Of a stretch of 64,000 bases of DNA, positions 2,498-58,509 are shown piece after piece. This stretch comes from a virus, in the IMG/VR virus record IMGVR_UViG_3300047089_000152, positions 32,001 through 96,000 of that record; one strand, given 5' to 3'. The first letter of the stretch is position 1, and each line of letters starts with the position of its first letter. A model generated the notes under the pieces. That model ran no database searches and had not been told where the DNA came from. It worked only from the letters and a program-made list of their open reading frames with translations. The position numbers and the translations under genes were made by a program.

Positions 2498-3072
2498 TCA
2501 CCCTCCTGCTTTCCGCCTTCGGTGGCGTAATAGATGTCGTTTGAAGCTTCCTGGTACGCGGCGATTGCCTCGGCTTCTTCGGCTTCGCGGGCGAGGATGT
2601 CCCGTACGGGTTCGCCGTCGCGTGCTTCGGGGATGAGGACTTCGCCGGGTACCTGGAGGTCTTCGATGTCCAGGTTTGGTTTACCGCGTTCGGTGCGGGC
2701 ATAGTTCAGCGCGTCGATCAGCTTCCGCAGCGTGGTGATCTTCGGTCGTTTACGACCGCCGGTTTCCAGCTTGGCGATTTCGTCGCGGGACACGCCGATA
2801 CGCAGGCCGGGTTTGCTGAGGTCGACACCGGCTGCGGTGAGCATGGTGCGGAGGGTCTGGACGGCCTGGCCGGGGTGTTCAAGTACCTGTACCTGGTCTC
2901 CAGGCTTCACGTCGTGGGCTGCGGCTAGCTTGGCCAGGTCCAGTGCCTGGGATAGGTGTGCTAGCTCGATACGTTCAAGCATGGCGCTTTTACGGGCGGC
3001 AGCCATCCGTTCCGGGTCTACCATGACACCGATGGCTGGCCGGGTCAGGCGGGGCGCGTCTGGCTGTGTCAT
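2494..3072 (-). CDS. XRE-like HTH DNA-binding protein
   Basis: GVSRDEIAKLETGGRKRPKITTLRKLIDAL. Confidence 0.65.
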   Translation of the reverse strand: MTQPDAPRLTRPAIGVMVDPERMAAARKSAMLERIELAHLSQALDLAKLAAAHDVKPGDQVQVLEHPGQAVQTLRTMLTAAGVDLSKPGLRIGVSRDEIAKLETGGRKRPKITTLRKLIDALNYARTERGKPNLDIEDLQVPGEVLIPEARDGEPVRDILAREAEEAEAIAAYQEASNDIYYATEGGKQEGE

Positions 3073-3190
3073 CCTTAAATGGTACCAGGTTGGACGGGGA
3101 CGGTACACGGCACGGTTTCCCTACCCTAGGACAGCGTGATACAGTAGAGGTACAAGACGGTATCCGCTACCGAGGAAGAAACCAACCCAC

Positions 3191-3565
3191 ATGGCACTCA
3201 CAAACGCCGCGTCCGGTGCAGACCACCTCGTCTCCCTAGACGACGAACGGCTGTCCTGCAAAGGCGACCGGCACAACTTCCCCAAACTCCGCGTCGGCAC
3301 CCTCCCCGCAGGGATGACCGCGCGAACCGTCCGCAGCGGCGTCTACCAGCTCACCTACATCTGCCCCGACTGCGGGACGGTACGACAGAAAACCACGCAG
3401 CGCGGCGGCCTCGTCGGCAACGCCAAGTACACCTACCAGCACCCCCCAGGCTACCTCGCCCCGAAAGGCGCGGGCCTCACCAAAAGCGACTACACCGCGG
3501 AACTCGCCCGCCGCGCAGCCCCCTACATCCGCGAAGCCGGGCGGCGTGAACAGGTGACAGCATGA
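3191..3565 (+). CDS. hypothetical Zn-ribbon protein
   Basis: CxGxRH and CPDCG motifs; upstream TGA-TACAGT promoter-like site. Confidence 0.6.
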   Translation: MALTNAASGADHLVSLDDERLSCKGDRHNFPKLRVGTLPAGMTARTVRSGVYQLTYICPDCGTVRQKTTQRGGLVGNAKYTYQHPPGYLAPKGAGLTKSDYTAELARRAAPYIREAGRREQVTA

Positions 3566-11453: not shown

Positions 11454-11520
11454 CTAGCCGCACCGCATGCTACAGTAGAGGTATAGTCAACGGACGAGGG
11501 CATGAAAGGAACAACGCACC

Positions 11521-12186
11521 ATGCCACCACGCAAGACCACCACAGGCGGACCAGTCCAGCTCACCAGGCTGGCAGAAGAAGTCGCCCAAATCCACATCGC
11601 CGGGGCTACGCCACTTATTATTCATAAATGGTCGGAAAAGGCGCTCAACCAGATGCGGATCGCCCAGTCCGGGGCAATTAAGCCGCCCCGCGAACCCAAG
11701 AACGCCGAAGAAAACGCCCACGCGGCAACATACTGGGTCGACGTCGCCGAGACGATCCCCGGCATCCCCAGCGTCTCATTCAAGGCCGCCATGGTCGGAG
11801 CCTGCCGGTTCTTCGACGGCCTCCCCATGACGACAGCAAAATTGCTGTTCTTCGTCGACGGGGTCGTCAGCGAAGCCAAGGGCGACGCGCCAGCACGCGA
11901 CCTGCTCGTCCCGATTATCTCCGGCCCTGGGGAAATGCGGGAAGACACCCCGCGCAACGACAACGGAAACCCGGACCTCCGGTACAGGAATCAGTTCTTC
12001 CCGTGGAAAGCCGTACTCAACGTGCGGTTCATGCCCGCGAAGATCGCCCCCGAATCCGTCATCGCGCTAGCTGACGCCGCCGGTCGTGGCGGTGTCGGAG
12101 AATGGCGTCCATCCGCACCGAAAAGCGCGACTGGCACATACGGCCAGTTTCGTGTCATCACCCGGAAGGAATGGGAGTCGGCCTAA
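11521..12186 (+). CDS. stand-alone Cas7/RAMP-like RNA-binding protein (Vipr-like effector)
   Basis: I.G.TPLIIH start, PGIPSVSFKAAM..AC, C-terminal Gly-rich loop GRGGVGEWRP...GTYGQFRV; flanked by guide arrays. Confidence 0.8.
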   Translation: MPPRKTTTGGPVQLTRLAEEVAQIHIAGATPLIIHKWSEKALNQMRIAQSGAIKPPREPKNAEENAHAATYWVDVAETIPGIPSVSFKAAMVGACRFFDGLPMTTAKLLFFVDGVVSEAKGDAPARDLLVPIISGPGEMREDTPRNDNGNPDLRYRNQFFPWKAVLNVRFMPAKIAPESVIALADAAGRGGVGEWRPSAPKSATGTYGQFRVITRKEWESA

Positions 12187-12187
12187 A

Positions 12188-12745
12188 ATGGCGACCATCA
12201 CCGTCGAACAGCAGTGGGCGTTCAAATCGGGTGCGCGTGTCCCGGGTGGCGTCCACGCCGAGGATGTGGTGCGTGAGAAGGAACAGATGGAAGACCACCT
12301 GGGCCGCCTCGCCACCACGGAGGAAGCCGCGGAAATGGTCCTCCGCTGGCCTACCAAGTACAAGGCGCACCGGGCGTTCGCACCGGCAACCGAGAAAGAA
12401 GCACTCCACGAAGCAGTGGTACGCGGTGTTCGGAGCGCCTGGAGTTCCGTGATTCAGGTCGACGTCGAAATCACCGAGGTCACCAACCGGATTTCCGGTG
12501 ATATCGAGATCGCAACCAGGCGTGTCGACGCACCCGAAGTGAGATGGTTTCACGCCGTGCCAGCACGCGTCGGCGACACGCAACGAGTTTATGACTCGTT
12601 GCCGAATATCGCAGCCGATGCTGACAAGGAAGCGGCGCTGTCCGAAGATCTCGCCACGCAAGCACGCAACTTCTCCGCAAAAGTAGCCAGCGTCACTGGC
12701 GAGCTGGCGCGGTTGCACAAGTTGCGCAGCACCGCCGGAAATTAG
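12188..12745 (+). CDS. accessory protein of the RAMP/array locus, function unknown
   Basis: starts 2 nt after the RAMP stop, ends immediately before the array leader hairpin. Confidence 0.7.
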   Translation: MATITVEQQWAFKSGARVPGGVHAEDVVREKEQMEDHLGRLATTEEAAEMVLRWPTKYKAHRAFAPATEKEALHEAVVRGVRSAWSSVIQVDVEITEVTNRISGDIEIATRRVDAPEVRWFHAVPARVGDTQRVYDSLPNIAADADKEAALSEDLATQARNFSAKVASVTGELARLHKLRSTAGN

Positions 12746-12794: not shown

Positions 12795-14073
12795 GGAGTG
12801 GAGGGGCAGGGACTGTCGTGGCAAGGAACGGCAGGGCACGGAGTGGATTGGCAGGATAGGCTCGGCGCGGCCAGGCGGGGAGCGTTTCGGAGTGGCATGG
12901 ATTGGCTGGGACTGGCAGTATCGGATCGCAGTGGTCAGGGTAGGCAAGGCCCGGCCAGGCGGGGCTCGGTATGGCCTGCACTGGCGGGGAACGCAATGGA
13001 GTGGCAGGACCGGTGTGGAATGGCTGGGACGGGAACGGCGCGGTAGGGAATGGAGTGGCAGGAACGGTGGGGCCGGGCGCGGCGCGGCTAGGCTCGGCGC
13101 GGACGGGCATGGATTGGCTGGGCAGGACAGGATCGGAGAGCAGGGGGCTGGCGCGGCATGGCACGGAGAGGCAGGAGAGGAACGGTCGGGACAGGAGCGG
13201 CAAGGAGCGCACCGGCAGGCAGCGGCAGGGAATGGCATGGAACGGACTGGATTGGCAGGACAGGACCGGCATGGCCAGGAGGGGCATGTCCTGGAATGGA
13301 ATGGCAGGAATGGCTGGGTACGGCGGGGCCGGGCGAGCATTGGACAGGACCGGCAGTCGCGGAAGGGCTCGGCAGGGACCGGATTGCAGCGGCGAGGATG
13401 GGCTAGGCAGGAGCGGAACGGCAGGGCATGGCCTGGATCGGAGCGGCTGGGCAGGATAGGCATGGATCGGCCTGGGTAGGCAAGGAGGGGCTGGGACGGG
13501 ACCGGATTGGCAGGGCAGCAGTGGAGAGGCAAGCCGTGCAATGGCGGGGCGGGGCGTGGCATGGACTGGACCGGCAGGACTGGACTGGACTGGATTGGAG
13601 AGCAGGGCAGTGGCAGGGATCGTAGGGGTTCGGACGGGCAGGTTAGGCTTGGACGGGCTAGGCGTGGCATGGGCCGGCAAGGAACGGCTCGGAGCGGCAG
13701 GGATTGGCACGGCTCGGAGTGGCAGGACCGGACGGGTACGACGTGGCGTGGCTGGCATTGGCAAGGACTGGCAGGAGTGGATTGGCAGGGCCGGGCTTGG
13801 CATGGCGTGGCTGGGAATGGCGTGGCAGGACAGGTGGGGCTTGGCGGGCCGGGGATCGGCACGGATGGGCATGGCATGGCCCGGTAGGGCATGGCAGCAT
13901 TGGACTGGACCGGACCGGCAAGGCTTGGCTTGGCTGGGATCGGATGGGAACGGCAGGAGCGGAGCGGACTGTCGTGGCATGGCATGGCCTGGCGTGGCGC
14001 GGATCGGACGGGCAGGATAGGTCGGGCGTGGAATGGAACGGACGGGCTGGGCATGGAACGGCAGGATAGGAGT
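12795..14073 (+). ncRNA. main guide array: 237 GG(C/A)-NN pentamers in 21 GGCA-delimited segments
   Basis: 237x5 + 21x4 = 1269 nt accounts exactly for 12795-14063, then GGATA GGAGT; segments of 8-17 pentamers. Confidence 0.85.
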
Positions 14074-14279
14074 GACCCGCAGGGCTACTGTCGGGGTGGG
14101 CCGCGTGCCCCGGCAGAAGTTCGGCGGTGGATGATCTTGTGCTCGTGCGGCCATCCTGCGGTCGAGCATGACCTGAACCGTTCGGAGACTAAGCGAACAG
14201 TTTGCCTGACCACCGAACGGACTACGAAATGTCCGTGCGTGCTATATTCACCAGACCTTCGTGATACACTAGAGGTACA

Positions 14280-15149
14280 ATGAACGAGACCATAGAACGA
14301 GAAGACCGCAGGGCCGTCACCGCGCTCACCTCCGGGGAAAACGCCACGAAGGTCACCGTCAAAACAAGCGACGGCAACTACGAAGAACGACAGCTAACCG
14401 TCCACGGGCTCGCACGGCTGATTCCCGTGATCGCACTGGGCGACATGGACCGGCTGATAGACGACGTGCGCGAACACGGCGTCCTCGAACCCCTGATCAT
14501 GTTCCAGGGACAAGTCCTTGACGGACGCAACCGGCTCGCCGTAGCTTCGGTCGTCGGCGTACCCGTGCAGCTCACCGAATTCGACGGAGACGAAGCCGCA
14601 GCCAGAAACTTCGTCTGGTCCGCGAACGCTGCGAGGCGGCACCTGTCCGTCCCCCAGATCGCGCTGGCCGCTGAACGGTTCGGTTTCGTCGACGCCGCCA
14701 AAGCCGAAGCAGGCCCCGACGACCCCAACCTGGATATCCGCTCGACGGTCGCACCATGGGCGCGAATCGCCGCGCGAAAGGTCGGTGCGATCACCCCGGC
14801 TACACTGGAACGGTTCCAGCAAGCCAGGATCCCCGAGGCACCCGACACGATGCGCCGGGTCGATTCCGGTGAGATCCGCCGGGTCGACGTCGCGGTCAAG
14901 GAAGCGGTCGCGGAGCGGACCGTGCTCACCGGCCGTCTCATCCAGGTTCCACCCCCGGTTGCGCGTACCGCGTGGGACCGGCTGGGCTGCGCGCGGGGTG
15001 ACGTTCTCGCCGCGGAACGCGCCATCCTGGCAGGGGACTGGGGTGGGATGGAAAGGGACCAGTTCGCTGTCCGCGCCCGTGAAATCCAGGGAGCCCTGAT
15101 CAGGATTCAGAATTTGTATCGTTATGGATCGGGCGGCAGGACCGGTTAG
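14280..15149 (+). CDS. ParB N-terminal domain protein
   Basis: L..DVREHGVLEPL...GQVLDGRNRL...SANAARRHLS. Confidence 0.8.
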   Translation: MNETIEREDRRAVTALTSGENATKVTVKTSDGNYEERQLTVHGLARLIPVIALGDMDRLIDDVREHGVLEPLIMFQGQVLDGRNRLAVASVVGVPVQLTEFDGDEAAARNFVWSANAARRHLSVPQIALAAERFGFVDAAKAEAGPDDPNLDIRSTVAPWARIAARKVGAITPATLERFQQARIPEAPDTMRRVDSGEIRRVDVAVKEAVAERTVLTGRLIQVPPPVARTAWDRLGCARGDVLAAERAILAGDWGGMERDQFAVRAREIQGALIRIQNLYRYGSGGRTG

Positions 15150-15207
15150 GACGGGCTAGGAATGGCTGGGCTGGGCATGGACTGGAATGGCAGGAATGGA
15201 ATGGCTA
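15135..15207 (+). ncRNA. satellite guide array S3
   Basis: GGCA + 10 pentamers (15139-15188) + GGCA + 3 pentamers; overlaps the ParB stop and the next ATG. Confidence 0.8.
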
Positions 15208-47501: not shown

Positions 47502-47610
47502 GGCAGGATGGGATTGGCATGGCGCGGCAAGGTAGGGCTCGGATCGGCAAGGAATGGATAGGAACGGCAGGAGTGGCAGGGTGCGGTCCTCTCGTATCGG
47601 GAGGACCGCA
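47502..47610 (+). ncRNA. satellite guide array S5 plus hairpin
   Basis: GGCA, 12 pentamers 47506-47565, GGCA, 2 pentamers; TGG-TACGCT -10 at 47478-47486; hairpin 47582-47610. Confidence 0.85.
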
Positions 47611-47627: not shown

Positions 47628-48911
47628 TCATCCTGCCGCCATATGTGAGTCGAAGAAATTATCCTTCGGGCCGATATGGGAACGGAACTTGTACTTACGG
47701 ATCAATTCCTCGCGGATTCCCACGAGGTCTTCTGAACTGAGTTCCGCCGTGCGGACCACGGAATCGGTACCCATGTTCTTTTGCCCGTAGGCGCCAAGTC
47801 CTTCTCCAGTAAATATCAGGTCGGTAGCTATTCCCTCGTCCATTTCCCGCCTGAATTCTGTGCCGCGATAAGGATAATAGATAGCAATCTGCGCATCATC
47901 TATCCCTGACGTGCAGATGAACCGTTCAGTCTCCGCGATCGTAGCGCGTGTCTCGCCGGGTAGCCCGATCATCACGAATGCTTTCACGGTGATGCCCGCA
48001 TCCTTGCAGTACCGGACACAATCGTAATTCTGCGTGGCGGTTGTCTTCTTATCCATCCGGTCTAGCATCTGCTGCGACCCGGATTCCGCACCAAACGCCA
48101 CCTCGACACACCCCGCATCGGCTAGCGCCGCGGCGAACTCCGCGGTCATGAATTTCGCGTGCACATTGCAGCGAAATCTTAGCCCGGAGCGCTTGAGTAG
48201 GTCCAGGTACGGCTGGCACTTCCCCAAATTAATTGCAAAAAGATCATCATACAAATACACGCCCTCATACCCGAGCGTCACGATGTCGTCCAGTTCGGCC
48301 TCGGCGTTGCCCAGCGAAGTCCACCTGGTCAGCGTCCGCGCGTCTTCACAGAACTTGCACGCCATCGGACAGCCCCGGCCGAGCATCATCGTGGTCGAGT
48401 TCAGCCCGGCCAGGGTGTACGAGTAGTTTTTCAGGAACCCAGGCTCACCCAGCCGGTCCGGGCGGGGCATCGCCGCTAGTTCCTGCCGGGGGATCTGGTC
48501 GTTGCTCATGACAGGAACCGTTTTGTTCTGCACGATGCCTGGCAGTGCCCGCTCCCCGTCGCCTGCCACCAGGTAGTCCCACAGCCCGGCCTGGTCGTCT
48601 GCGTTCATCTCCCGGCCGTAATGCCGGACGTGCGGGCCGCCTGCCACCAGAACTTTGGACGGCCAGCGGCTCCTGATCGCGCGGGCTATCCGGTTAGCCT
48701 CGGCGCGCTGCGGTGTCATCACCGAGACGCCTACTATGTCAGCGTCCGCGAACTGGTCCAGATCCTCGACGTCGTATTCGTCTACGACGCTGATCTTAGT
48801 ACCGGGGGCCTGCGCGGCCACCGCGGATTTCAGGTACAGCAGGCCGAGGGGCGGGTAGATACGGTCGTCGTCCAGGAACGGGGACCGGCAGGAAACCAGG
48901 GACAGTTTCAT
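47628..48911 (-). CDS. B12-binding radical SAM enzyme
   Basis: PPLGLLYL..GGPH; RGCPMACKFC; GAESGSQ; IGLPGET. Confidence 0.9.
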   Translation of the reverse strand: MKLSLVSCRSPFLDDDRIYPPLGLLYLKSAVAAQAPGTKISVVDEYDVEDLDQFADADIVGVSVMTPQRAEANRIARAIRSRWPSKVLVAGGPHVRHYGREMNADDQAGLWDYLVAGDGERALPGIVQNKTVPVMSNDQIPRQELAAMPRPDRLGEPGFLKNYSYTLAGLNSTTMMLGRGCPMACKFCEDARTLTRWTSLGNAEAELDDIVTLGYEGVYLYDDLFAINLGKCQPYLDLLKRSGLRFRCNVHAKFMTAEFAAALADAGCVEVAFGAESGSQQMLDRMDKKTTATQNYDCVRYCKDAGITVKAFVMIGLPGETRATIAETERFICTSGIDDAQIAIYYPYRGTEFRREMDEGIATDLIFTGEGLGAYGQKNMGTDSVVRTAELSSEDLVGIREELIRKYKFRSHIGPKDNFFDSHMAAG

Positions 48912-51529: not shown

Positions 51530-52771
51530 CTACGTGGCCGCGCCAGCGAAGTACTTCAGAGCACCGGTCTGGTCCACGAGGACCCCGTCACCACGCAGGA
51601 TGGCGCGGAAGGTCACCAGGTCGGTGGAGAACGCGAAGTCGTCGGACCGCTCGAACCGGACCCCGCCGACCAGACGCACGAAGTACTGCGAGAAGTCACC
51701 GAAAACAATGGACTTCGCGGACAGCGCCTGCGCGGGCATGAACGGGTCAGCGACCAGCGGCTTACCCAGCAGAAGGTCCGGGGACCCGAGCACCGCGGAA
51801 GGCTCCCAGATGGGGCGGCCGACAGTGTCGGTGATCTTCCTGAACCCGCCGATCGTCTTGTCAGCCGCCAGCCAGTAGCAGCTGCGGGACTGACGGTACG
51901 GGGCGATCACGGAGTATTCCAGGTCGACCAGGTTCGCATAGCTGGGCGCACCGGAAACACCGGTCGTGGTGCCGGTAACGCCGAGGGTCGCACCGGTGAT
52001 GACACCACCGGATACACCGTTGATGCCGTTGACCAGAGACGTGCCGAACACGTTACCGATCGCCCGCCCGGCCTGCATCGCGAGATAACCCAGCAGGTCA
52101 ACCGCGGTGTCGTCGATCAGTTCACGCGCCGCCTGGATCATGATGCCGAACTTCACCGCACCGAGGGTCTGCATCGAGAACGCAGGGTCGGACAGGGGAA
52201 GCGCGGAAGCCTGCGAAGCGGTCAGCGCCGTCGAATGCGCAGTCGTCTTCGGAACCTGGAGCGTTTCACCACCACCAGTGTTCAAAACGGTCGGCCCGCA
52301 CTGCATGACACCCGAAACCTCAATGAGGTGGGAAATCAGCTGGTCGTAGAAGTCCGTCGGGATAATACCCGAAACGGCTCCCTGCGTGGACTGCAAAACA
52401 CGGTAGTTGATCGGACCCGGCGCCTGCCGGCGGATCTCCAGCGCCCGCGGGGCACCTTCCTCACCACGCGCCCACTTGCGGATCTCATCGTTCATGTTCC
52501 GCTGCGCCGGGCTACCAGCACCACCCTCACGCGGGCGGCCCTCAAGGTCGTTGAACGCGTCGTCGGCGGCCTTCGCGCGCTTCTCCGTCTCCAGAACCGC
52601 GCCGATGCGCGTGTCCAGCGTGCGCATCTCCTCCTGCATCGCGTCCCACTTACCCTGCTCCTCCGGGGTAAACGAGCGGTTCTCCGCAGCGGCGTCCTCG
52701 GCGATCTTCTTCGCCTCGTTCCACACGCCGAGCCTGCGGTCACGCAGCCTCTTCGCGACTTCACTAGCCAT
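51530..52771 (-). CDS. major capsid protein, HK97 fold
   Basis: N-terminal coiled-coil delta domain; ELIDD..DL; D..GRPIW..LLGKP; FGDFS.Y; R.DG. Confidence 0.95.
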   Translation of the reverse strand: MASEVAKRLRDRRLGVWNEAKKIAEDAAAENRSFTPEEQGKWDAMQEEMRTLDTRIGAVLETEKRAKAADDAFNDLEGRPREGGAGSPAQRNMNDEIRKWARGEEGAPRALEIRRQAPGPINYRVLQSTQGAVSGIIPTDFYDQLISHLIEVSGVMQCGPTVLNTGGGETLQVPKTTAHSTALTASQASALPLSDPAFSMQTLGAVKFGIMIQAARELIDDTAVDLLGYLAMQAGRAIGNVFGTSLVNGINGVSGGVITGATLGVTGTTTGVSGAPSYANLVDLEYSVIAPYRQSRSCYWLAADKTIGGFRKITDTVGRPIWEPSAVLGSPDLLLGKPLVADPFMPAQALSAKSIVFGDFSQYFVRLVGGVRFERSDDFAFSTDLVTFRAILRGDGVLVDQTGALKYFAGAAT

Positions 52772-53172: not shown

Positions 53173-54168
53173 TCACTCGTCGTTGGCGTAGGGGTCTTCG
53201 GCGTTGTCCAGCAGGTCCAGCATGGCCAGCGCACCCGTCAGGGTCTTCTTCCGCTCCTGCTTGGCCTTCGCCTGCCGCGGGCCAGTATTGTCGGTCCGCT
53301 TGAAGAACTCCATCGCCCTGTTCTCGACCAGACGCTCCCGGACCTCTTCCGGTTCGGCCTGCGCCCACTGAGCCAGCGAGTACACGGCACCGTTGATAGC
53401 CCGCGCCGCCGCTGTCGCGTCCGGATAGGCAGGGTCCAGTACCGGGGCCACGTCGATCAGCTGCACCGCGTGCAACGTCCGCATCGGATACCCGAACTGG
53501 TCCGAAACCCCCCACTCATCCCCACCCGGGAACACCCGGAAAGCGAAAGACGAGTGGCAGATGTCGCCGCGCTGCACATATTCCAGCACGTCCCTGCGGG
53601 CCTGCGGGGGTTCCACGTCATACATCAGCCCGGTCGAGTCGATACCCAGCTTCAGCGTGTTCGCCCGGGTAGTACCCAGCAGCGCGTCGTCGCTGTGGTT
53701 GTACCGGCACACCACATCCGGCCACCCGTCCTGCTTGGATTCATCGAACGCGTTCCGGTTCACCTGCTCCACGAAACCGCCCAGCTTCCTGGACAGCTTA
53801 TCGAAACACGCCGCGTAACCCCAGATGTGCTGCGCCTTGTCCTGTTCCGTCCGCACTTCCAGCGGGAACCGGACGAACCGCCGCTCAGGGAACGAACCAG
53901 AATCCGGTTCCATCCCCCCGAACGCACGCGCCGCGCCCGTCACGTTCACGCCATGCTTACGCGCAGCACCGATGATCGCCGGCATCGCGTCCTTACCGAA
54001 CGGCGAATTAGGAGCCTGCGACAGCGATAGCCGCACCGCGGCGGCATCGTGTATCGGGAAGTGACGCTTGTCCCGCGGCGTTGTGCGCCCGCTCATGTCA
54101 CGCATCCCGCCAGGCTCAATCAAAGCGAACTGACTGTCAAGCAGGTTGTGGGTGTCCAGCTCAGCCAT
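53173..54168 (-). CDS. HK97-type prohead protease with N-terminal extra domain
   Basis: GYAA.F...LGGFVE...NH...LLG...RGD...SSFAF..DV.PV..PAY. Confidence 0.9.
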   Translation of the reverse strand: MAELDTHNLLDSQFALIEPGGMRDMSGRTTPRDKRHFPIHDAAAVRLSLSQAPNSPFGKDAMPAIIGAARKHGVNVTGAARAFGGMEPDSGSFPERRFVRFPLEVRTEQDKAQHIWGYAACFDKLSRKLGGFVEQVNRNAFDESKQDGWPDVVCRYNHSDDALLGTTRANTLKLGIDSTGLMYDVEPPQARRDVLEYVQRGDICHSSFAFRVFPGGDEWGVSDQFGYPMRTLHAVQLIDVAPVLDPAYPDATAAARAINGAVYSLAQWAQAEPEEVRERLVENRAMEFFKRTDNTGPRQAKAKQERKKTLTGALAMLDLLDNAEDPYANDE

Positions 54169-54199
54169 GTCTCCTGTCCTTCTCTTTGTACTACGCCGG

Positions 54200-54556
54200 T
54201 CAGGATTTCCTGGCGGGCCGGGCCTTATTCATAGATTTCGCGGGCTTTTTAGCCGCGGGCTTAGCCGCAGCAGGCTTCGCTTCGGCAGCAGGCTTCGCGG
54301 TCTTCGCGGCAGCTGAATCGCCCTTACCCTGCGAGGATGGCAACTCCGGGTATTTCCGACGGACCGCTGCCTGAACTTTTGCCTTCTCCGCAGGCGTCCC
54401 ATTCGCCGCAACTCGTGACAGGGCGTTAGCGCCCCGTGCCTTAGAGTTAATAGGGTATGCGTCAGCACCACCAGGACCACCACCAGGCAGCGCATACGAC
54501 CCAGCCGGCGCGGCAGTATTAGGCGCAGGCTTACCGGTCTTCTTCCTCGGTGGCAT
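54200..54556 (-). CDS. small basic head-region protein
   Basis: YPI..ARGANALSRV...V.RKYP plus Lys/Ala tail; GGGAG RBS. Confidence 0.7.
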   Translation of the reverse strand: MPPRKKTGKPAPNTAAPAGSYALPGGGPGGADAYPINSKARGANALSRVAANGTPAEKAKVQAAVRRKYPELPSSQGKGDSAAAKTAKPAAEAKPAAAKPAAKKPAKSMNKARPARKS

Positions 54557-54575
54557 ATAATCTCCCTTAGTGCCA

Positions 54576-54685
54576 GGTATGGAGGGGTGCGGCTTGGCGT
54601 GGCTTGGCGGGGCGCGGCGGGGATTGCATTGGATTGGATTGGCAGGAACGTCACTGACCTGCACCTACGCGGTGCAGGTCAGTGA
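54576..54685 (+). ncRNA. satellite guide array S6 plus 15-bp hairpin
   Basis: 13 pentamers 54576-54640, GGCA, GGAAC; TATAAT at 54556-54561; inverted repeat 54651-54665/54671-54685. Confidence 0.85.
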
Positions 54686-56314
54686 TTCCCGTTGTGTCCG
54701 TTTGAGCTGGCCTTCGGCGGAATCCACGGCCCGACGAACTCGGGGCCAAGCGCATCATCACGTTCCGCCTGGCGGACCGCTGCGACAATCTTCGCGAACA
54801 CTTCCGGGTGGACACTGGAACCATCGCCGCGCACGGACGTGATCTCCTTGACGATCTCCTGGAGAACATTCGGCGGGACGAACCCGCCCGCACCCGCAGC
54901 ACCAGCCGCACCCGCCACGGCAGGCCCGTTCGCGCCCAGAGCACCAGGCACGTTTATCCCAGGCGGGGCGTTCCCCGCACCAGGCCCCGACGGCTGACCC
55001 GTACCCGGCGGCAACCCCACCGGCTCCTGACCAGCCTGGAGTTCTTGCAGATACTCGACCAGCAGCCGCTGTTCCAGGGTGACCTGCGGGAGGAACGAAT
55101 TCGGGATCGCCCGCGTCGACCGGGCCATCGCGACAATCGCGTCCAGCGGGATCGTGTCCTTACCCATCTGCTGCGGCAACGGCTCCAGGTCCTCCGTGTC
55201 ACGCATCTCATCAATCGACTTGAACCCGATGTCCCGCCACGTCTTGTAAATGTTCGCCCGTTCAGCCAGGTCAGCTTTCAGCAGCGCGTCAGTAGCGAAC
55301 CGGGCGTAACGGTTCGCCGGTAGCAGCTTGAAGAACGCGGTCTCCAGCCGGACCAGCCACGGGCGCAGCGCCTCGATGATCTGCAACGCACCCTGCTGCA
55401 CCGTGGAATACGTCAGCGAGTCGCCACGCTTACCACCCACCCGGTCAGGAGGCAATCCATAAACAGCGGCGAGCTGCGTCGCGTTCATCTGCATCGCCTC
55501 AATAAACTGCGCCTCCGACGGCGGAACAGTCACCGGGTGATAATCCCAGTCACGACCGTATACCAAGGGGGTCCTGTTGCGAATCGACTGGTTCAGTGCG
55601 CTGCGGATCTCCGCAGCCTGCGACGGGTCGATCTCGATCTCGTTGTTCTTGAACGTACCCGGAGGGAACCCGCCGGCCTTGAACCAGTCCGTCCCGAACC
55701 GGGTAGCCTCCAGGCCATTCAGGATCGTCAACGCGAACGCGCGCAGCGGAGAGATACCCTCCGTGCGGCCAGCAAGACTGAATGCCTTGATGTGGAAATA
55801 TTCGTCGCGCTGCATCAACCGCCCGTAAAAATACACGCGGGACCGAAGCGGATTGTACGGCTGCGACTCGTCGTCAATGACCGTGATCATCTCCGGGGGC
55901 ATCCACTGGATCTGCGTCGGATACCCGTACCCGTCACGCCCCAGAATGTATCCCCACGCGTTACCGTGCAGCAAAAGCGCGGTCAAGCATTCATAAAGCC
56001 AATCCATAAGATTTGTTGACGGGGACGGGTCGTCGAATATCGACGGGCCATCCCACTTCTTCTGCCCCGCACCCGGCGTTTTAATGTAAACTTTCAGCGG
56101 CAACGACGCGATGTACTCAGCGATCATCCGCACGCACGCGTACAGCGGTGTCAGTCTTAGCGCCTCGTCGGCCCCGTAAAACGAACGGGACGGATGCGCA
56201 GGGCCACCAGCACTGAAGGGAAAGTAAATACGGCGAGTCCCACGGCCTCCAGGGCACGCCAGAAATAACACGACTCTCAGTTTTACTCGCCAGTACCCGC
56301 TCGACCAGACCCAC
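54679..56314 (-). CDS. HK97-type portal protein, with an apparent frame break near 56225
   Basis: ACV..IA..IASLPL, LLL.GNA, G.SPL, AQFIE...A..YG.PP; the RBS-supported N-terminus is in another frame. Confidence 0.9.
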
Positions 56315-56371
56315 CAGATCACCCCCCTTCTTTATCTTGCGTTCCCTGCTAGATACCCTTATTATTGATTC

Positions 56372-57517: not shown

Positions 57518-58417
57518 CTACAATCCCTTGTCGGTCATCCACGTCTGCGCGGCCTTGGCTACCTTCGCGTTTCCGCCGATGTGGTGGAGCTGCACCCACG
57601 GGTGGAGCAGCGTGGCGAACGCGACGTCGTCGGTGTTGTGACCCGGGACAGGCACCGGGGGTACCGGGACAGGGACGGGTGCGGGGGCGGTCAACGGCAG
57701 GGACACGGTCGCGTCACCCTGTTCGGCTAGCAGCCGTTCCAGTGTCGCGTAGGAGTAGCAGAATGAGCCGTCGACACCGAACCCTGTGCCCCACGAATTG
57801 TCCAGGAACAGGATCTTCTTGTCGACGTCCTTGCCGCGGCACAGATATTCGTGGCCACCCCGGATCTGCGCGCCAGGGCTGACGGCTACGAGGCCGCTGC
57901 TATCGGGTCGGTCCATCGAGTCATACCAATTCGACCCGATGCCTACCGGGCCTGCTTCCAGCGCGTCGAGGACGTCTGCGAGGGAGAAGCAGTGCAGGTA
58001 CCCCGAAATCCAGCCCATGTTCTTCGCGACCTGCGCCGCCGACGGCCCCGACGAACCATTGTCGTTGGGAGGGTAGGGACCATCCCCGTCGATGGTCTCA
58101 GCCCCACTGTAGATCCGCAGCGCCAGCGGCTCATCCAGAGGGATGTGACCGGCTGGTAGCGCGTCGAACAGGGGTCCCGTGCCGAGCGCACCAACCTGCT
58201 CGTTTCCGGTGCAGGACCCGACGTTGCCCTGATCCAGGATGGGGATCTGCCGGGGCCACAGCTGGGTCGTTAGCCCCGCCGCGGTCCGCTGCCACGGATA
58301 TGCGCGGTTCCGCTCGTCATGATACAGATTCCGCCCCAAGGGCAGGGGGTTCTCGGCTGATGCAGCCTGCCAAGGGATGCGGGCACGCTGGGTGGACCAT
58401 GCGGTCACTACAACCAT
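57518..58417 (-). CDS. papain-like (C1) cysteine peptidase
   Basis: LDQGNVGSCTGN, GGHE, NSWG. Confidence 0.85.
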   Translation of the reverse strand: MVVVTAWSTQRARIPWQAASAENPLPLGRNLYHDERNRAYPWQRTAAGLTTQLWPRQIPILDQGNVGSCTGNEQVGALGTGPLFDALPAGHIPLDEPLALRIYSGAETIDGDGPYPPNDNGSSGPSAAQVAKNMGWISGYLHCFSLADVLDALEAGPVGIGSNWYDSMDRPDSSGLVAVSPGAQIRGGHEYLCRGKDVDKKILFLDNSWGTGFGVDGSFCYSYATLERLLAEQGDATVSLPLTAPAPVPVPVPPVPVPGHNTDDVAFATLLHPWVQLHHIGGNAKVAKAAQTWMTDKGL

Positions 58418-58453: not shown

Positions 58454-58509
58454 GGATAGGAGCGGCAGGGCTTGGCCTGGAGAGGATCGGCTGGGATTGG
58501 ATTGGCAGG
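58454..58509 (+). ncRNA. satellite guide array S7
   Basis: 10 pentamers 58454-58503, GGCA GG; TGG-TACACT-GTAGGTAC promoter 58430-58446. Confidence 0.8.

What the first reader, a model, noticed from the sequence alone, without database searches (positions are those of the whole stretch)
54507..54685. Satellite S6 matches the first codons of the divergent head-region gene
Guide NN pairs (54581-54640): GG GC TT GT TT GG GC GG TT TT TT TT. Plus strand 54507-54541 gapped: GG GC GC GT TT GG GC GG TT CC GT TT. That is 9/12 pairs. Decoded KKKKPAPNTKAP versus own KTGKPAPNTAAP. The guide's TATAAT box (54556-54561) overlaps that gene's start codon, and the site lies upstream of the protease and capsid genes, where a transcription roadblock would be polar.
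Basis: partly seen in the sequence, partly recalled or inferred. Interest (0 to 1): 0.82.

Follow-up and report, generated by a model that had tools for sequence, protein, structure and literature searches.

The report
Solo VIPR guide beside resistant allele
S6 is a stand-alone guide-RNA gene of the recently described phage VIPR silencing system; its two-letter code spells the start of the neighbouring head gene as rival sibling phages write it, while the phage's own copy carries a unique change, so it looks like a weapon kept next to its own antidote.

Summary
The 12 NN pairs of S6 (54581-54640) match 54507-54541 at 9/12 pairs (19/24 bases), with every skipped base on a codon wobble position. 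This is the single best site on both strands of the 104-kb phage record; the next best is 6/12 pairs. It lies 40 bp from the array.

S6 has the build of the phage's other VIPR guide RNAs (vrRNAs): a -10 box, a first unit GGA-NN, a last unit GGCAG followed by GA, then a hairpin. The phage encodes a Cas7-like Vipr protein beside a 1.3-kb staggered vrRNA array.

The guide reads KKKKPAPNTKAP. Related soil phages carry KGKK/KRKK/AKKK-PAPNTKAP (22/24 bases, 92%). Of 120 homologue clusters, 65 match at 10/12 pairs or better. The phage's own allele has Ala where 97 of 120 have Lys and none has Ala, which drops self from 21/24 to 19/24 (79%).

Relatives lack the roughly 120-bp S6 cassette. One relative carries a similar cassette whose guide fits this phage's peptidase allele (25/28) better than its own (20/28).

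Best reading: a solo vrRNA aimed at sibling phages' head operon, linked to a resistant self allele. VIPR and solo vrRNAs are in 2026 preprints, so this is a new variant of a known kind. This scan has noted the same pattern on at least 8 other genomes. Expression and silencing are untested.

The parts
54556..54561 (+). -10 box (TATAAT) of the S6 cassette. It shares base 54556 with the start codon of the divergent small gene.
   Evidence: Sequence. It ends 19 nt before the first GGA-NN unit, within the 12-19 nt spacing seen at the other solo cassettes, which have TGGTAnnnT boxes. The sigma-70 scan found no -35 partner.
54562..54580 (+). Putative 5' leader, including a non-matching GGTAT unit. 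It is antisense to the small gene's ribosome-binding site (GGGAG).
   Evidence: Adding GGTAT to the guide gives no extra match.
54581..54640 (+). S6 guide: 12 pentamers of form GG-N-NN. The NN pairs read as KKKKPAPNTKAP on the opposite strand.
   Evidence: The first unit is GGA-NN, as in the phage's other vrRNAs.
54641..54647 (+). Terminal GGCAG unit plus GA, the boundary motif shared by all vrRNAs of this phage.
   Evidence: It matches the 1-nt-overlap 'staggered array' boundary described in fig. S18 of 10.64898/2026.04.26.720920.
54651..54685 (+). 16-bp perfect hairpin closing the cassette. Its distal arm is made of the last codons and stop codon of the portal gene.
   Evidence: MFE -68.6 kcal/mol for 54562-54705, z -3.5. 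No T run follows.
54557..54678 (.). Cassette of about 120 bp present here but absent from relatives, where the small gene follows the portal stop within about 0-30 nt.
   Evidence: comparing L003-L007, L014, L018-19, L022-23, L052 and L078.
54507..54541 (-). Near-self target site: codons 6-17 (KTGKPAPNTAAP) of the small gene. It matches the guide at 9/12 pairs (19/24 bases). It also lies 15-50 bp upstream of S6's own -10 box.
54200..54556 (-). Small conserved head-region gene (118 aa) of unknown function, the family targeted by S6.
   Evidence: phrog_16160, weak; no Pfam hit; 181 homologues.
54679..56322 (-). Portal protein gene, directly upstream in the late operon.
   Evidence: phrog_12, E 1e-63.
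53173..54168 (-). Head maturation protease gene, downstream of the target site.
   Evidence: phrog_80, E 3e-29.
51530..52771 (-). Major head protein gene, further downstream.
   Evidence: phrog_10, E 2e-55.
11521..12186 (+). vipr: a Cas7-like RAMP protein, the presumed partner of S6.
   Evidence: the only PDB sequence hit is SUSP1 Vipr (E 0.56), aligning GVGEWRP with its G-loop GVGDWRP and a thumb Arg; model pLDDT 87.6; top Foldseek hits are all Cas7/Csm3/Cmr4 subunits; 607 homologues.
12188..12745 (+). Candidate vap (accessory gene), function unknown.
   Evidence: pLDDT 94. Searches gave no informative fold or sequence match.
12795..14064 (+). Main staggered vrRNA array of about 20 guides, each ending in GGCAG.
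   Evidence: Its guides have only chance-level self matches.

Best explanation
S6 is a solo vrRNA gene of this phage's VIPR system. It is a cassette of about 120 bp (a -10 box, 12 GG-N-NN units, a GGCAG-GA end and a hairpin) inserted between the portal gene and a small conserved head-region gene, and it is transcribed antisense to the late operon.

Inferred mechanism: the RNA is coated by the phage's Vipr protein, one protomer per pentamer. The NN pairs then base-pair with codon positions 1-2 of the sense strand of the target, skipping each wobble base.

The guide spells KKKKPAPNTKAP, the near-invariant N-terminal motif of this gene family as related phages carry it. Its effective targets are therefore co-infecting or resident sibling phages. 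A Vipr filament at the 5' end of that gene, just after the portal gene, would block transcription into the protease and capsid genes.

The phage's own copy, 40 bp away, is partly protected by three mismatched codons. One of them is a Lys-to-Ala change found in no other homologue. Keeping the guide beside the resistant allele stops recombination from separating weapon and immunity.

Shown here: the repeat anatomy, the match statistics, the better fit to relatives, the uniqueness of the self allele, the Vipr fold, and the absence of the cassette in relatives.

Inferred, not shown: transcription of S6, loading by Vipr, silencing, and that 79% identity spares self while 83-92% does not.
For: (1) The near-self match is the unique genome-wide best (9/12 pairs against 6/12 for the next) and is wobble-aligned.

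(2) S6 has the same build as the phage's other vrRNAs. The boundary motif fits the published staggered arrays.

(3) The cognate protein is present. It has a Cas7-like fold and aligns with the G-loop of SUSP1 Vipr.

(4) Relatives found through the portal gene carry alleles at 22/24 (KGKK, KRKK, AKKK) and 21/24 (PDKK), against 19/24 for self. Scrambled guides never exceed 20/24 on the same 211 kb. None of the phage's other 25 guides scores above 0.83 there.

(5) Of the 120 homologue clusters listed, 16 match at 11/12 pairs and 49 at 10/12. Positions 4-12 are almost invariant. At position 10, 97 clusters have Lys and none has Ala as self does. The self-like allele KTGKPAPNTKAP exists (P0034). It would score 21/24, so the self-specific change takes self from 0.875 to 0.79, across the 0.8 line used in the preprints.

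(6) In 15 distinct DNA alleles, codon positions 1-2 of the last 9 codons are 99% conserved against 63% for the wobble position.

(7) Four of the phage's seven solo arrays have their genome-wide best hit 12-656 bp away, whereas the main-array guides do not.

(8) Relative L015 carries a cassette of the same build. Its guide fits this phage's peptidase allele at 25/28 but its own at 20/28.

(9) Precedent: solo vrRNAs whose self-match is lower than their non-self match are described in 10.64898/2026.10.15.759431.
Against: No perfect 12/12 target exists in IMG/VR. The best natural allele still has one mismatched pair, near the 3' end of the guide.

43 of 120 relatives score 9/12, the same as self. 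The count alone therefore does not separate self from many non-self alleles.

The mismatch tolerance of any VIPR system is unpublished, and 0.8 is only an informatic cut-off.

Two other solos of this phage match self at 0.83 and 0.90, so self matches above 0.8 are evidently tolerated or used here.

The four 3' units (GGATT GCATT GGATT GGATT) could have arisen by repeat homogenisation rather than by selection for a KKKK target.

No expression data exist.

The guide's third base is A in 5 of 14 units, whereas the SUSP1 pocket excludes purines.
Confidence: 0.6

Rival explanations
1. Self-regulation. S6 is a genuine vrRNA, but its relevant target is the phage's own site. The partly matched Vipr-S6 filament would bind 54507-54541 in cis. 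That would throttle or time the small gene, protease and capsid genes, and would feed back on S6's own promoter, whose upstream region the site covers.
For: The best site in the genome is 40 bp away and overlaps the -16 to -50 region of S6's -10 box. Two other solos match self at 0.83-0.90, and one of those sites abuts its own cassette. No perfect foreign target was found for three solos.
Against: A regulator has no reason to keep mismatches. The guide holds the family consensus where self is uniquely changed. It also fits relatives better than self. Relatives run the same operon without any cassette. L015's guide fits a foreign allele much better than its own.
Confidence: 0.15
2. RNA-guided homing or marker exclusion. 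The targeted sibling allele is damaged or stalled rather than only silenced. Repair from this phage's DNA then copies the resistant allele together with the adjacent S6 cassette, so the cassette spreads as free-standing homing endonuclease genes do.
For: The guide lies within 12-656 bp of a resistant self allele at four loci. The cassette is present here and absent in relatives at the same junction. An orthologous cassette position with different guides occurs in L015 and at 58454. Some VIPR types carry nuclease vap genes.
Against: The accessory protein here shows no recognisable nuclease. The studied VIPR systems repress transcription.
Confidence: 0.08
3. Relic or decaying guide. S6 was once a perfect copy of a local or ancestral sequence and is now drifting, with unit homogenisation at its 3' end and no present function.
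For: Only 9/12 pairs match self. One unit is degenerate (GCATT). There is a run of near-identical GGATT units. No perfect target was found.
Against: The -10 box, the first-unit rule, the GGCAG-GA end and a perfect 16-bp hairpin are all intact. The guide's state at the mismatches equals the family majority at positions 3 and 10. Matches to relatives of 22/24 were never reached by scrambled guides.
Confidence: 0.07
4. Decoy or anti-VIPR RNA. S6 mainly soaks up or redirects a competitor's Vipr protein, as satellite solo vrRNAs do, rather than arming the phage's own Vipr.
For: Solo vrRNAs that redirect a helper's VIPR are documented. Vipr homologues are common in this phage group.
Against: The phage has its own vipr and a large array. 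The S6 target is a single-copy phage gene, not a multi-copy decoy. The match pattern follows a homologous gene family.
Confidence: 0.05

Closest known systems
VIPR systems (Vipr RAMP protein + vap + vrRNA), type II of Escherichia phage SUSP1 and a P. fulva prophage (bioRxiv 10.64898/2026.04.26.720920; structures in 10.64898/2026.04.26.720927)
   Same: Pentamer repeats with two variable bases. The 1-nt-skip pairing is aligned to the codon wobble position. The guide has 12 units. A small Cas7-like protein with a G-loop GVG(D/E)WRP is encoded beside an array. The system is phage-borne and aimed at other mobile elements.
   Different: The third repeat base is C, A or T rather than a strict pyrimidine. 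There is no conserved pseudoknot tail of about 40 nt. Instead there is a GGCAG-GA end and, in solos, a non-conserved hairpin. The phage group is of actinobacterial type (a 48% identical Vipr occurs in Mycobacterium phage Florinda). The accessory protein has no recognisable fold.
Solo (orphan) vrRNAs of F5 satellites and VIPR-null SUSP1-like phages (bioRxiv 10.64898/2026.10.15.759431)
   Same: A vrRNA gene encoded away from the vipr operon with its own promoter. The guide is aimed at close competitors. The self-match is lower than the non-self match, which avoids autoimmunity.
   Different: Here the carrier is VIPR-positive. The solo sits inside the late structural operon, directly beside the phage's own homologue of its target. 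The target is a structural-module gene rather than vipr, a vrRNA, a recombinase or host REP elements. That preprint's ancestry control reported no target covered by the phage's own homology, which is the opposite of this case.
Staggered vrRNA arrays (fig. S18 of 10.64898/2026.04.26.720920)
   Same: Successive guides overlap by one nucleotide. Here this is GGCA(G)GA, and S6 ends with the same motif.
   Different: Only a figure legend is available, so type assignment and processing of this phage's array could not be checked.
Virus-borne mini-CRISPR arrays and solitary repeat units aimed at related viruses (from my own knowledge: Medvedeva et al. 2019; Faure et al. 2019; not re-read here)
   Same: A virus carries a minimal guide cassette that targets a gene of its close relatives for superinfection exclusion, while its own allele differs.
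   Different: The effector and code differ: CRISPR spacers pair contiguously. Those arrays are not placed beside the self allele as a rule.
Free-standing homing endonucleases of T-even phages, marker exclusion (from my own knowledge)
   Same: A selfish cassette lies between conserved genes. It acts on the neighbouring gene of relatives that lack it, and the self allele is resistant through sequence polymorphism.
   Different: Those are protein nucleases that cleave DNA. Here the element is an RNA guide for a silencing complex, and no nuclease was found.

Membership tests
VIPR vrRNA | Tandem 5-nt units with a fixed GG(Y) scaffold and two hypervariable bases, at least 4 units (typically 9-16) | tested here: met
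   There are 14 units at 54576-54645. 13 of the 14 start with GG, and the NN pairs vary. The third base is C or T in 9 units and A in 5, so the strict Y is not kept. The preprint allows 'a related consensus' in other types.
VIPR vrRNA | NN pairs match a target under the 1-nt-skip rule, with skips on codon wobble positions, at 80% NN identity or more | tested here: met
   The best natural alleles score 22/24 (92%) in relatives, wobble-aligned. Self scores 19/24 (79%). Scrambled guides reach at most 20/24.
VIPR vrRNA | A cognate Vipr (RAMP) protein is available in the same element | tested here: met
   The ORF at 11521-12186 has a Cas7/Csm3-like fold (pLDDT 87.6; Foldseek E 1e-5, prob 1.0). Its only PDB sequence hit is SUSP1 Vipr, over the G-loop and thumb Arg, at a weak E of 0.56. 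It lies next to a 1.3-kb array.
VIPR vrRNA | A conserved structured 3' tail (pseudoknot in the SUSP1 clade) | tested here: not met
   No shared tail of about 40 nt exists. What is conserved is GGCAG followed by GA. Each solo is then followed by a different hairpin. This fails for the SUSP1 clade but is consistent with the staggered-array types.
VIPR vrRNA | Transcribed as a small RNA that co-purifies with Vipr and directs repression | not testable with these tools
   No sequencing run could be listed. The region has no Rfam family.
Solo vrRNA (10.64898/2026.10.15.759431) | vrRNA encoded apart from the vipr-vap operon, self-contained | tested here: met
   S6 lies 42 kb from vipr. It has its own -10 box and closing hairpin.
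Solo vrRNA (10.64898/2026.10.15.759431) | Self-match score lower than match to competitors | tested here: met
   Self is 0.79. Relatives reach 0.83-0.92 in 65 of 120 homologue clusters and in several IMG/VR contigs.
Homing-type selfish cassette | An associated nuclease that cuts the cassette-less allele | tested here: inconclusive
   The accessory protein gave no Pfam or PHROG hit and no informative fold match. No assay was possible.

The most novel reading that the evidence does not exclude
Solo VIPR guides in this phage group are selfish 'weapon plus linked immunity' cassettes. Each sits beside a recoded self allele and attacks the common allele in sibling phages. Either recombination cannot unlink guide and immunity, or the cassette actively spreads by co-conversion. 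[quoted passage not shown]
Probability: 0.12. Interest if true: 0.85.

Novelty: new variant of a known kind. Interest (0 to 1): 0.6.

Why it matters
VIPR was described only in 2026, and its natural targets are known mainly for enterobacterial phages and their satellites. Here a VIPR-positive actinobacterial-type soil phage carries a solo guide inside its own head-gene operon. The guide is aimed at the consensus form of the very gene it sits next to, and the phage's own copy has a unique amino-acid change at a guide-read codon.

That arrangement is a guide linked to a resistant homologue, and the preprints held in the library do not describe it. It suggests how phages could discriminate self from sibling with a code that ignores wobble changes, and why escape has to go through amino-acid changes.

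It gives a clean experiment: four alleles differing by one to three codons, tested against one guide. A close Vipr homologue in Mycobacterium phage Florinda offers a culturable system for testing this VIPR type.

Tried and rejected
- **Chance match:** rejected by the genome-wide scan and the shuffle controls.
- **Exact 12/12 target in IMG/VR:** none found. Exact targets for two other solos, at 47506 and 15139, were also not found.
- **Portal relatives in GTDB genomes:** none found, so no host was assigned.
- **RNA evidence:** no sequencing run was listed for 54300-54900. This says nothing about expression.
- **Known RNA families:** Rfam gave no match in 54000-55200.
- **Promoter and terminator scan:** no full -35/-10 promoter and no T-run terminator were found. 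The -10 box and hairpin rest on reading the sequence and on comparison with the other solos.
- **Vap function:** Pfam, PHROGs, the ESM Atlas, Foldseek, a PDB profile search and VIA-align gave nothing informative beyond a long C-terminal helix. Silencing and cleavage therefore could not be told apart.
- **Lifestyle:** no integrase or large serine recombinase was found in the record, which is only about 81% complete.
- **Early ideas dropped once the VIPR papers were read:** I had considered TRAP-like or CsrA-like protein-binding repeats, G-quadruplexes, rut sites and centromere-like repeats for the GG-period-5 arrays.
- **Off-family hits:** an unrelated low-complexity protein (NANKPAPNTNAP) in 11 IMG/VR contigs also scores 22/24. 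In very large databases this K/N-degenerate guide is therefore not family-specific on its own.

Full report
**What is there.** The window is bases 32001-96000 of a 104,150-bp linear IMG/VR phage record estimated at about 81% complete. At 54576-54645 the + strand carries 14 head-to-tail pentamers of the form GG-N-NN. The + strand at 54507-54541, read two bases in three, gives the second string. Nine of 12 pairs agree (19 of 24 bases). The skipped bases are the wobble positions of codons 6-17 (KTGKPAPNTAAP) of a minus-strand ORF, 54200-54556, whose ATG shares base 54556 with a perfect TATAAT at 54556-54561. PHROGs confirms the late-operon order on the minus strand: large terminase, peptidase, orf130, portal (54679-56322), the S6 cassette, the small gene, head maturation protease (53173-54168), major head protein (51530-52771).

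**Is it more than chance?** Yes. I scanned the guide under the NNx rule over both strands of the whole record. The adjacent site is the single best hit; the runner-up has 6/12 pairs and 17/24 bases. Scrambled versions of the guide reach 19/24 anywhere in the genome in only 1/200 runs (bases shuffled) or 7/200 runs (pairs shuffled). The real hit is in addition 40 bp from the array.

The rule is general in this phage. Four of its seven dispersed mini-arrays (15139, 30754, 47506 and S6) have their genome-wide best hit 12-656 bp away, at 0.77-0.90 identity (S6: 0.73 for the 13 units scanned there, 0.79 for the 12-unit guide). The roughly 20 guides of the main array have only scattered chance-level hits.

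**What kind of thing it is.** The window holds a 1.3-kb run of the same pentamers at 12795-14064, plus smaller runs.

VIPR systems consist of a small RAMP protein (Vipr), an accessory gene (vap) and vrRNAs made of alternating GGY/NN motifs. The NN bases pair with DNA while every third target base is skipped, usually the codon wobble position. The outcome is transcriptional silencing on either strand (10.64898/2026.04.26.720920; structures in 10.64898/2026.04.26.720927).

The ORF at 11521-12186, just upstream of the main array, has 607 homologues. Its only PDB sequence hit is 'SUSP1 Vipr protein'. That hit is weak (E 0.56), but it aligns GVGEWRP with the G-loop GVGDWRP and an Arg with the thumb Arg. 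The ORF folds with pLDDT 87.6 into a structure whose best matches are all Cas7-type backbone subunits, namely type VII Cas7, Csm3 and Cmr4.

In the main array each guide ends in GGCAG, and the last G starts the next guide (GGA-NN). This is the 'staggered' 1-nt-overlap architecture of the preprint's fig. S18.

S6 obeys the same grammar:
- Its first matching unit is GGA-GG.
- Its last unit is GGCAG, followed by GA.
- A 16-bp perfect hairpin follows at 54651-54685.
- A -10 box ends 19 nt before the first unit.

The other solos have the same layout, with TGGTAnnnT boxes 12-19 nt upstream and a different hairpin each. S6 is therefore a solo vrRNA gene, 42 kb from vipr. Departures from the SUSP1 type are the third base (A in 5 of 14 units) and the lack of a conserved pseudoknot tail.

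**What it is aimed at.** Read on the gene's strand, the guide spells [K/N]x4-P-A-P-[K/N]-T-[K/N]-A-P.

I collected relatives through the portal protein: 24 IMG/VR loci and 18 soil-metagenome loci at 52-87% identity, with none in GTDB genomes. In those that keep the small gene, it follows the portal stop within about 0-30 nt. The roughly 120-bp S6 cassette (54557-54678) is therefore an insertion peculiar to this phage among those sampled.

Their alleles fit the guide better than self does:

| Allele | Bases matched | Loci |
|---|---|---|
| KGKKPAPNTKAP | 22/24 | L004-L007, L014, L066 |
| KRKK... | 22/24 | L068, L074 |
| AKKK... | 22/24 | L051 |
| PDKK... | 21/24 | L022, L036 |
| self (KTGK...NTAAP) | 19/24 | this phage |

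Scrambled guides never exceed 20/24 on the same 211 kb. None of the phage's other 25 guides gives a comparable hit there.

A protein search returned 181 homologues. Of the 120 listed, 16 match the guide at 11/12 codons, 49 at 10/12 and 43 at 9/12. Positions 4-12 (KPAPNTKAP) are almost invariant. At position 10 the counts are Lys 97, Pro 11, Glu 7, Gln 3, Arg 1 and Asp 1. None has Ala, which is the state of this phage's own gene.

An allele identical to self apart from that residue exists (P0034, KTGKPAPNTKAP). It would score 21/24. The self-specific AAG-to-GCC change takes self to 19/24, from 0.875 to 0.79. That crosses the 0.8 line the preprints use to call targets and to report the absence of self-targeting.

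At the DNA level, across 15 distinct alleles, codon positions 1 and 2 of the nine conserved codons are 99% conserved against 63% for the wobble base. This is the logic the October preprint proposes for VIPR.

**Independent support from a relative.** Locus L015 (81% portal identity) carries a cassette of the same build: TGGTACGTT, then 14 NN units, GGCAG and a hairpin. It is the positional orthologue of this phage's solo at 58454-58508, with homologous flanks but different NN pairs. Its guide matches this phage's peptidase gene at 58056-58096 with 25/28 bases (TIDGDGPYPPNDNG). It matches its own allele (MIDGGAGYPPEDEG) with only 20/28. Sibling phages of this group therefore do carry solo guides that fit each other's alleles better than their own.

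**How it most likely works.**

Shown:
- the anatomy and the statistics
- the better fit to relatives
- the unique self substitution
- the presence of Vipr
- the cassette being present here and absent in relatives

Inferred from the published SUSP1 and P. fulva work:
- S6 is transcribed from its -10 box.
- It is bound by one Vipr protomer per pentamer.
- The filament pairs with the sense (non-template) strand of the small gene in a sibling phage and forms an R-loop triplex.
- That blocks RNA polymerase coming from the portal gene, so protease, scaffold and capsid genes are starved.

Self is spared, at least in part, by mismatches at guide pairs 3, 10 and 11. Two of these lie near the guide's 3' end, where SUSP1 filaments begin DNA engagement. 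Placing the guide 40 bp from the resistant allele keeps the two together when mosaic phages recombine. I put this reading at 0.6.

**Rivals.**
- **Autoregulation (0.15).** This is the main rival. The self site overlaps the -16 to -50 region of S6's own promoter, and two other solos match self at 0.83-0.90. No perfect foreign target was found for three solos. Against it, a regulator has no reason to keep the family consensus exactly where self is uniquely changed, and relatives run the operon without the cassette.
- **Homing-like spread (0.08).** This fits the geometry, but no nuclease was found. The candidate Vap (12188-12745) folds confidently (pLDDT 94) yet matches nothing informative.
- **Relic guide (0.07).** This is suggested by the GCATT unit and the GGATT run, but every other cassette feature is intact.
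- **Decoy for a competitor's Vipr (0.05).** This is possible by analogy with satellite solos, but it does not explain the family-specific match.

**Caveats.**
- 43 of 120 relatives score 9/12, as self does.
- Mismatch tolerance is unknown for any VIPR system.
- No RNA data could be had.
- The K/N-degenerate, proline/alanine-rich guide also hits an unrelated low-complexity protein at 22/24 in IMG/VR.

**Comparison with what is known and novelty.** S6 is a member of the VIPR vrRNA kind and of the 'solo vrRNA' class (10.64898/2026.10.15.759431). That paper describes self-match below non-self match for vrRNA-targeting solos.

What I did not find in the four papers held in the library is:
- a solo in a VIPR-positive phage
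- one embedded in the structural operon
- one sitting directly beside the phage's own homologue of its target
- a self allele carrying a unique change at a guide-read codon

That preprint's ancestry control in fact reports no target covered by the phage's own homology. I therefore rate S6 a new variant of a known kind.

This scan has already noted the same 'solo guide beside a resistant self allele' pattern on at least eight other genomes. Those are unchecked AI notes, and I did not use them as evidence.

Noticed in passing
L015:62-136 (minus strand of the locus); window 58056-58096: A relative (81% portal identity) carries a solo vrRNA cassette whose 14-NN guide matches this phage's peptidase gene at 25/28 bases but its own allele at 20/28. 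This looks like reciprocal sibling targeting. The cassette is the positional orthologue of this phage's solo at 58454-58508, with conserved flanks and different NN pairs.
   Followed up: partly
window 15099-15127 and 48226-48260: Two other solos (15139-15193 and 47506-47570) match adjacent self genes at 18/20 (0.90) and 20/24 (0.83). Both exceed the 0.8 cut-off under which the preprints saw no self-targeting. Exact-pattern scans of IMG/VR found no perfect foreign target for either.
   Followed up: partly
window 58454-58508 and 1354-1408: Two solo vrRNA cassettes have no self match above chance (0.65-0.70) and no hit in the relatives' portal neighbourhoods. Their targets are unknown.
   Followed up: partly
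L001 (Mycobacterium phage Florinda, NC_028889.1) locus 2480-2745 and 2868-3467: Florinda has a GGC-NN pentamer array with GGCAG punctuation, annotated as a hypothetical protein CDS (gp59). It lies directly upstream of gp60, which is 48% identical to this phage's Vipr (hhalign prob 100%, E 7e-87). Quico, Philus and Gordonia phage Ecliptus show similar arrays. Cultured actinophages therefore probably carry this VIPR type, with the array mis-annotated as coding.
   Followed up: partly
window 54507-54541 relative to 54556-54561: The near-self target of S6 covers the region 15-50 bp upstream of S6's own -10 box. Any self binding would also repress S6 itself.
   Followed up: no
L040:812-876; window 56286-56312: A relative (87% portal identity) has a vrRNA-like array just upstream of its portal gene. 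An 8-unit sub-guide matches the N-terminal codons of this phage's portal at 15/16, against 14/16 in its own locus. The guide is short, so the significance is borderline. The site coincides with a 14-nt tandem repeat called by TRF.
   Followed up: partly
L037:34-201: A relative (73% portal identity) carries three consecutive vrRNA-like arrays ending in GGCAG followed by TC, upstream of its portal region. This may be a different boundary motif (GGCAGTC). No significant match to this genome was found.
   Followed up: no
window 12188-12745: The candidate vap folds with pLDDT 94 into a helical bundle, a small sheet and a 40-residue C-terminal helix. It has no Pfam or PHROG hit and no PDB fold match, and only about 20 detectable homologues among 1.8 billion representatives.
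   Followed up: yes
window 11465-11490 and 14258-14280: A shared promoter-like motif lies just upstream of vipr and of the ParB-like gene (TACAGTAGAGGTATAGT and TACACTAGAGGTACAAT). It differs from the TGGTAnnnT boxes of the vrRNA cassettes.
   Followed up: no
L045, L047, L055-L059, L061, L063, L070, L079: Eleven IMG/VR contigs encode an unrelated low-complexity protein (NANKPAPNTNAPTPVN...) that matches the S6 guide at 22/24. This is an off-family hit that shows the limits of the K/N-degenerate code in very large databases.
   Followed up: no
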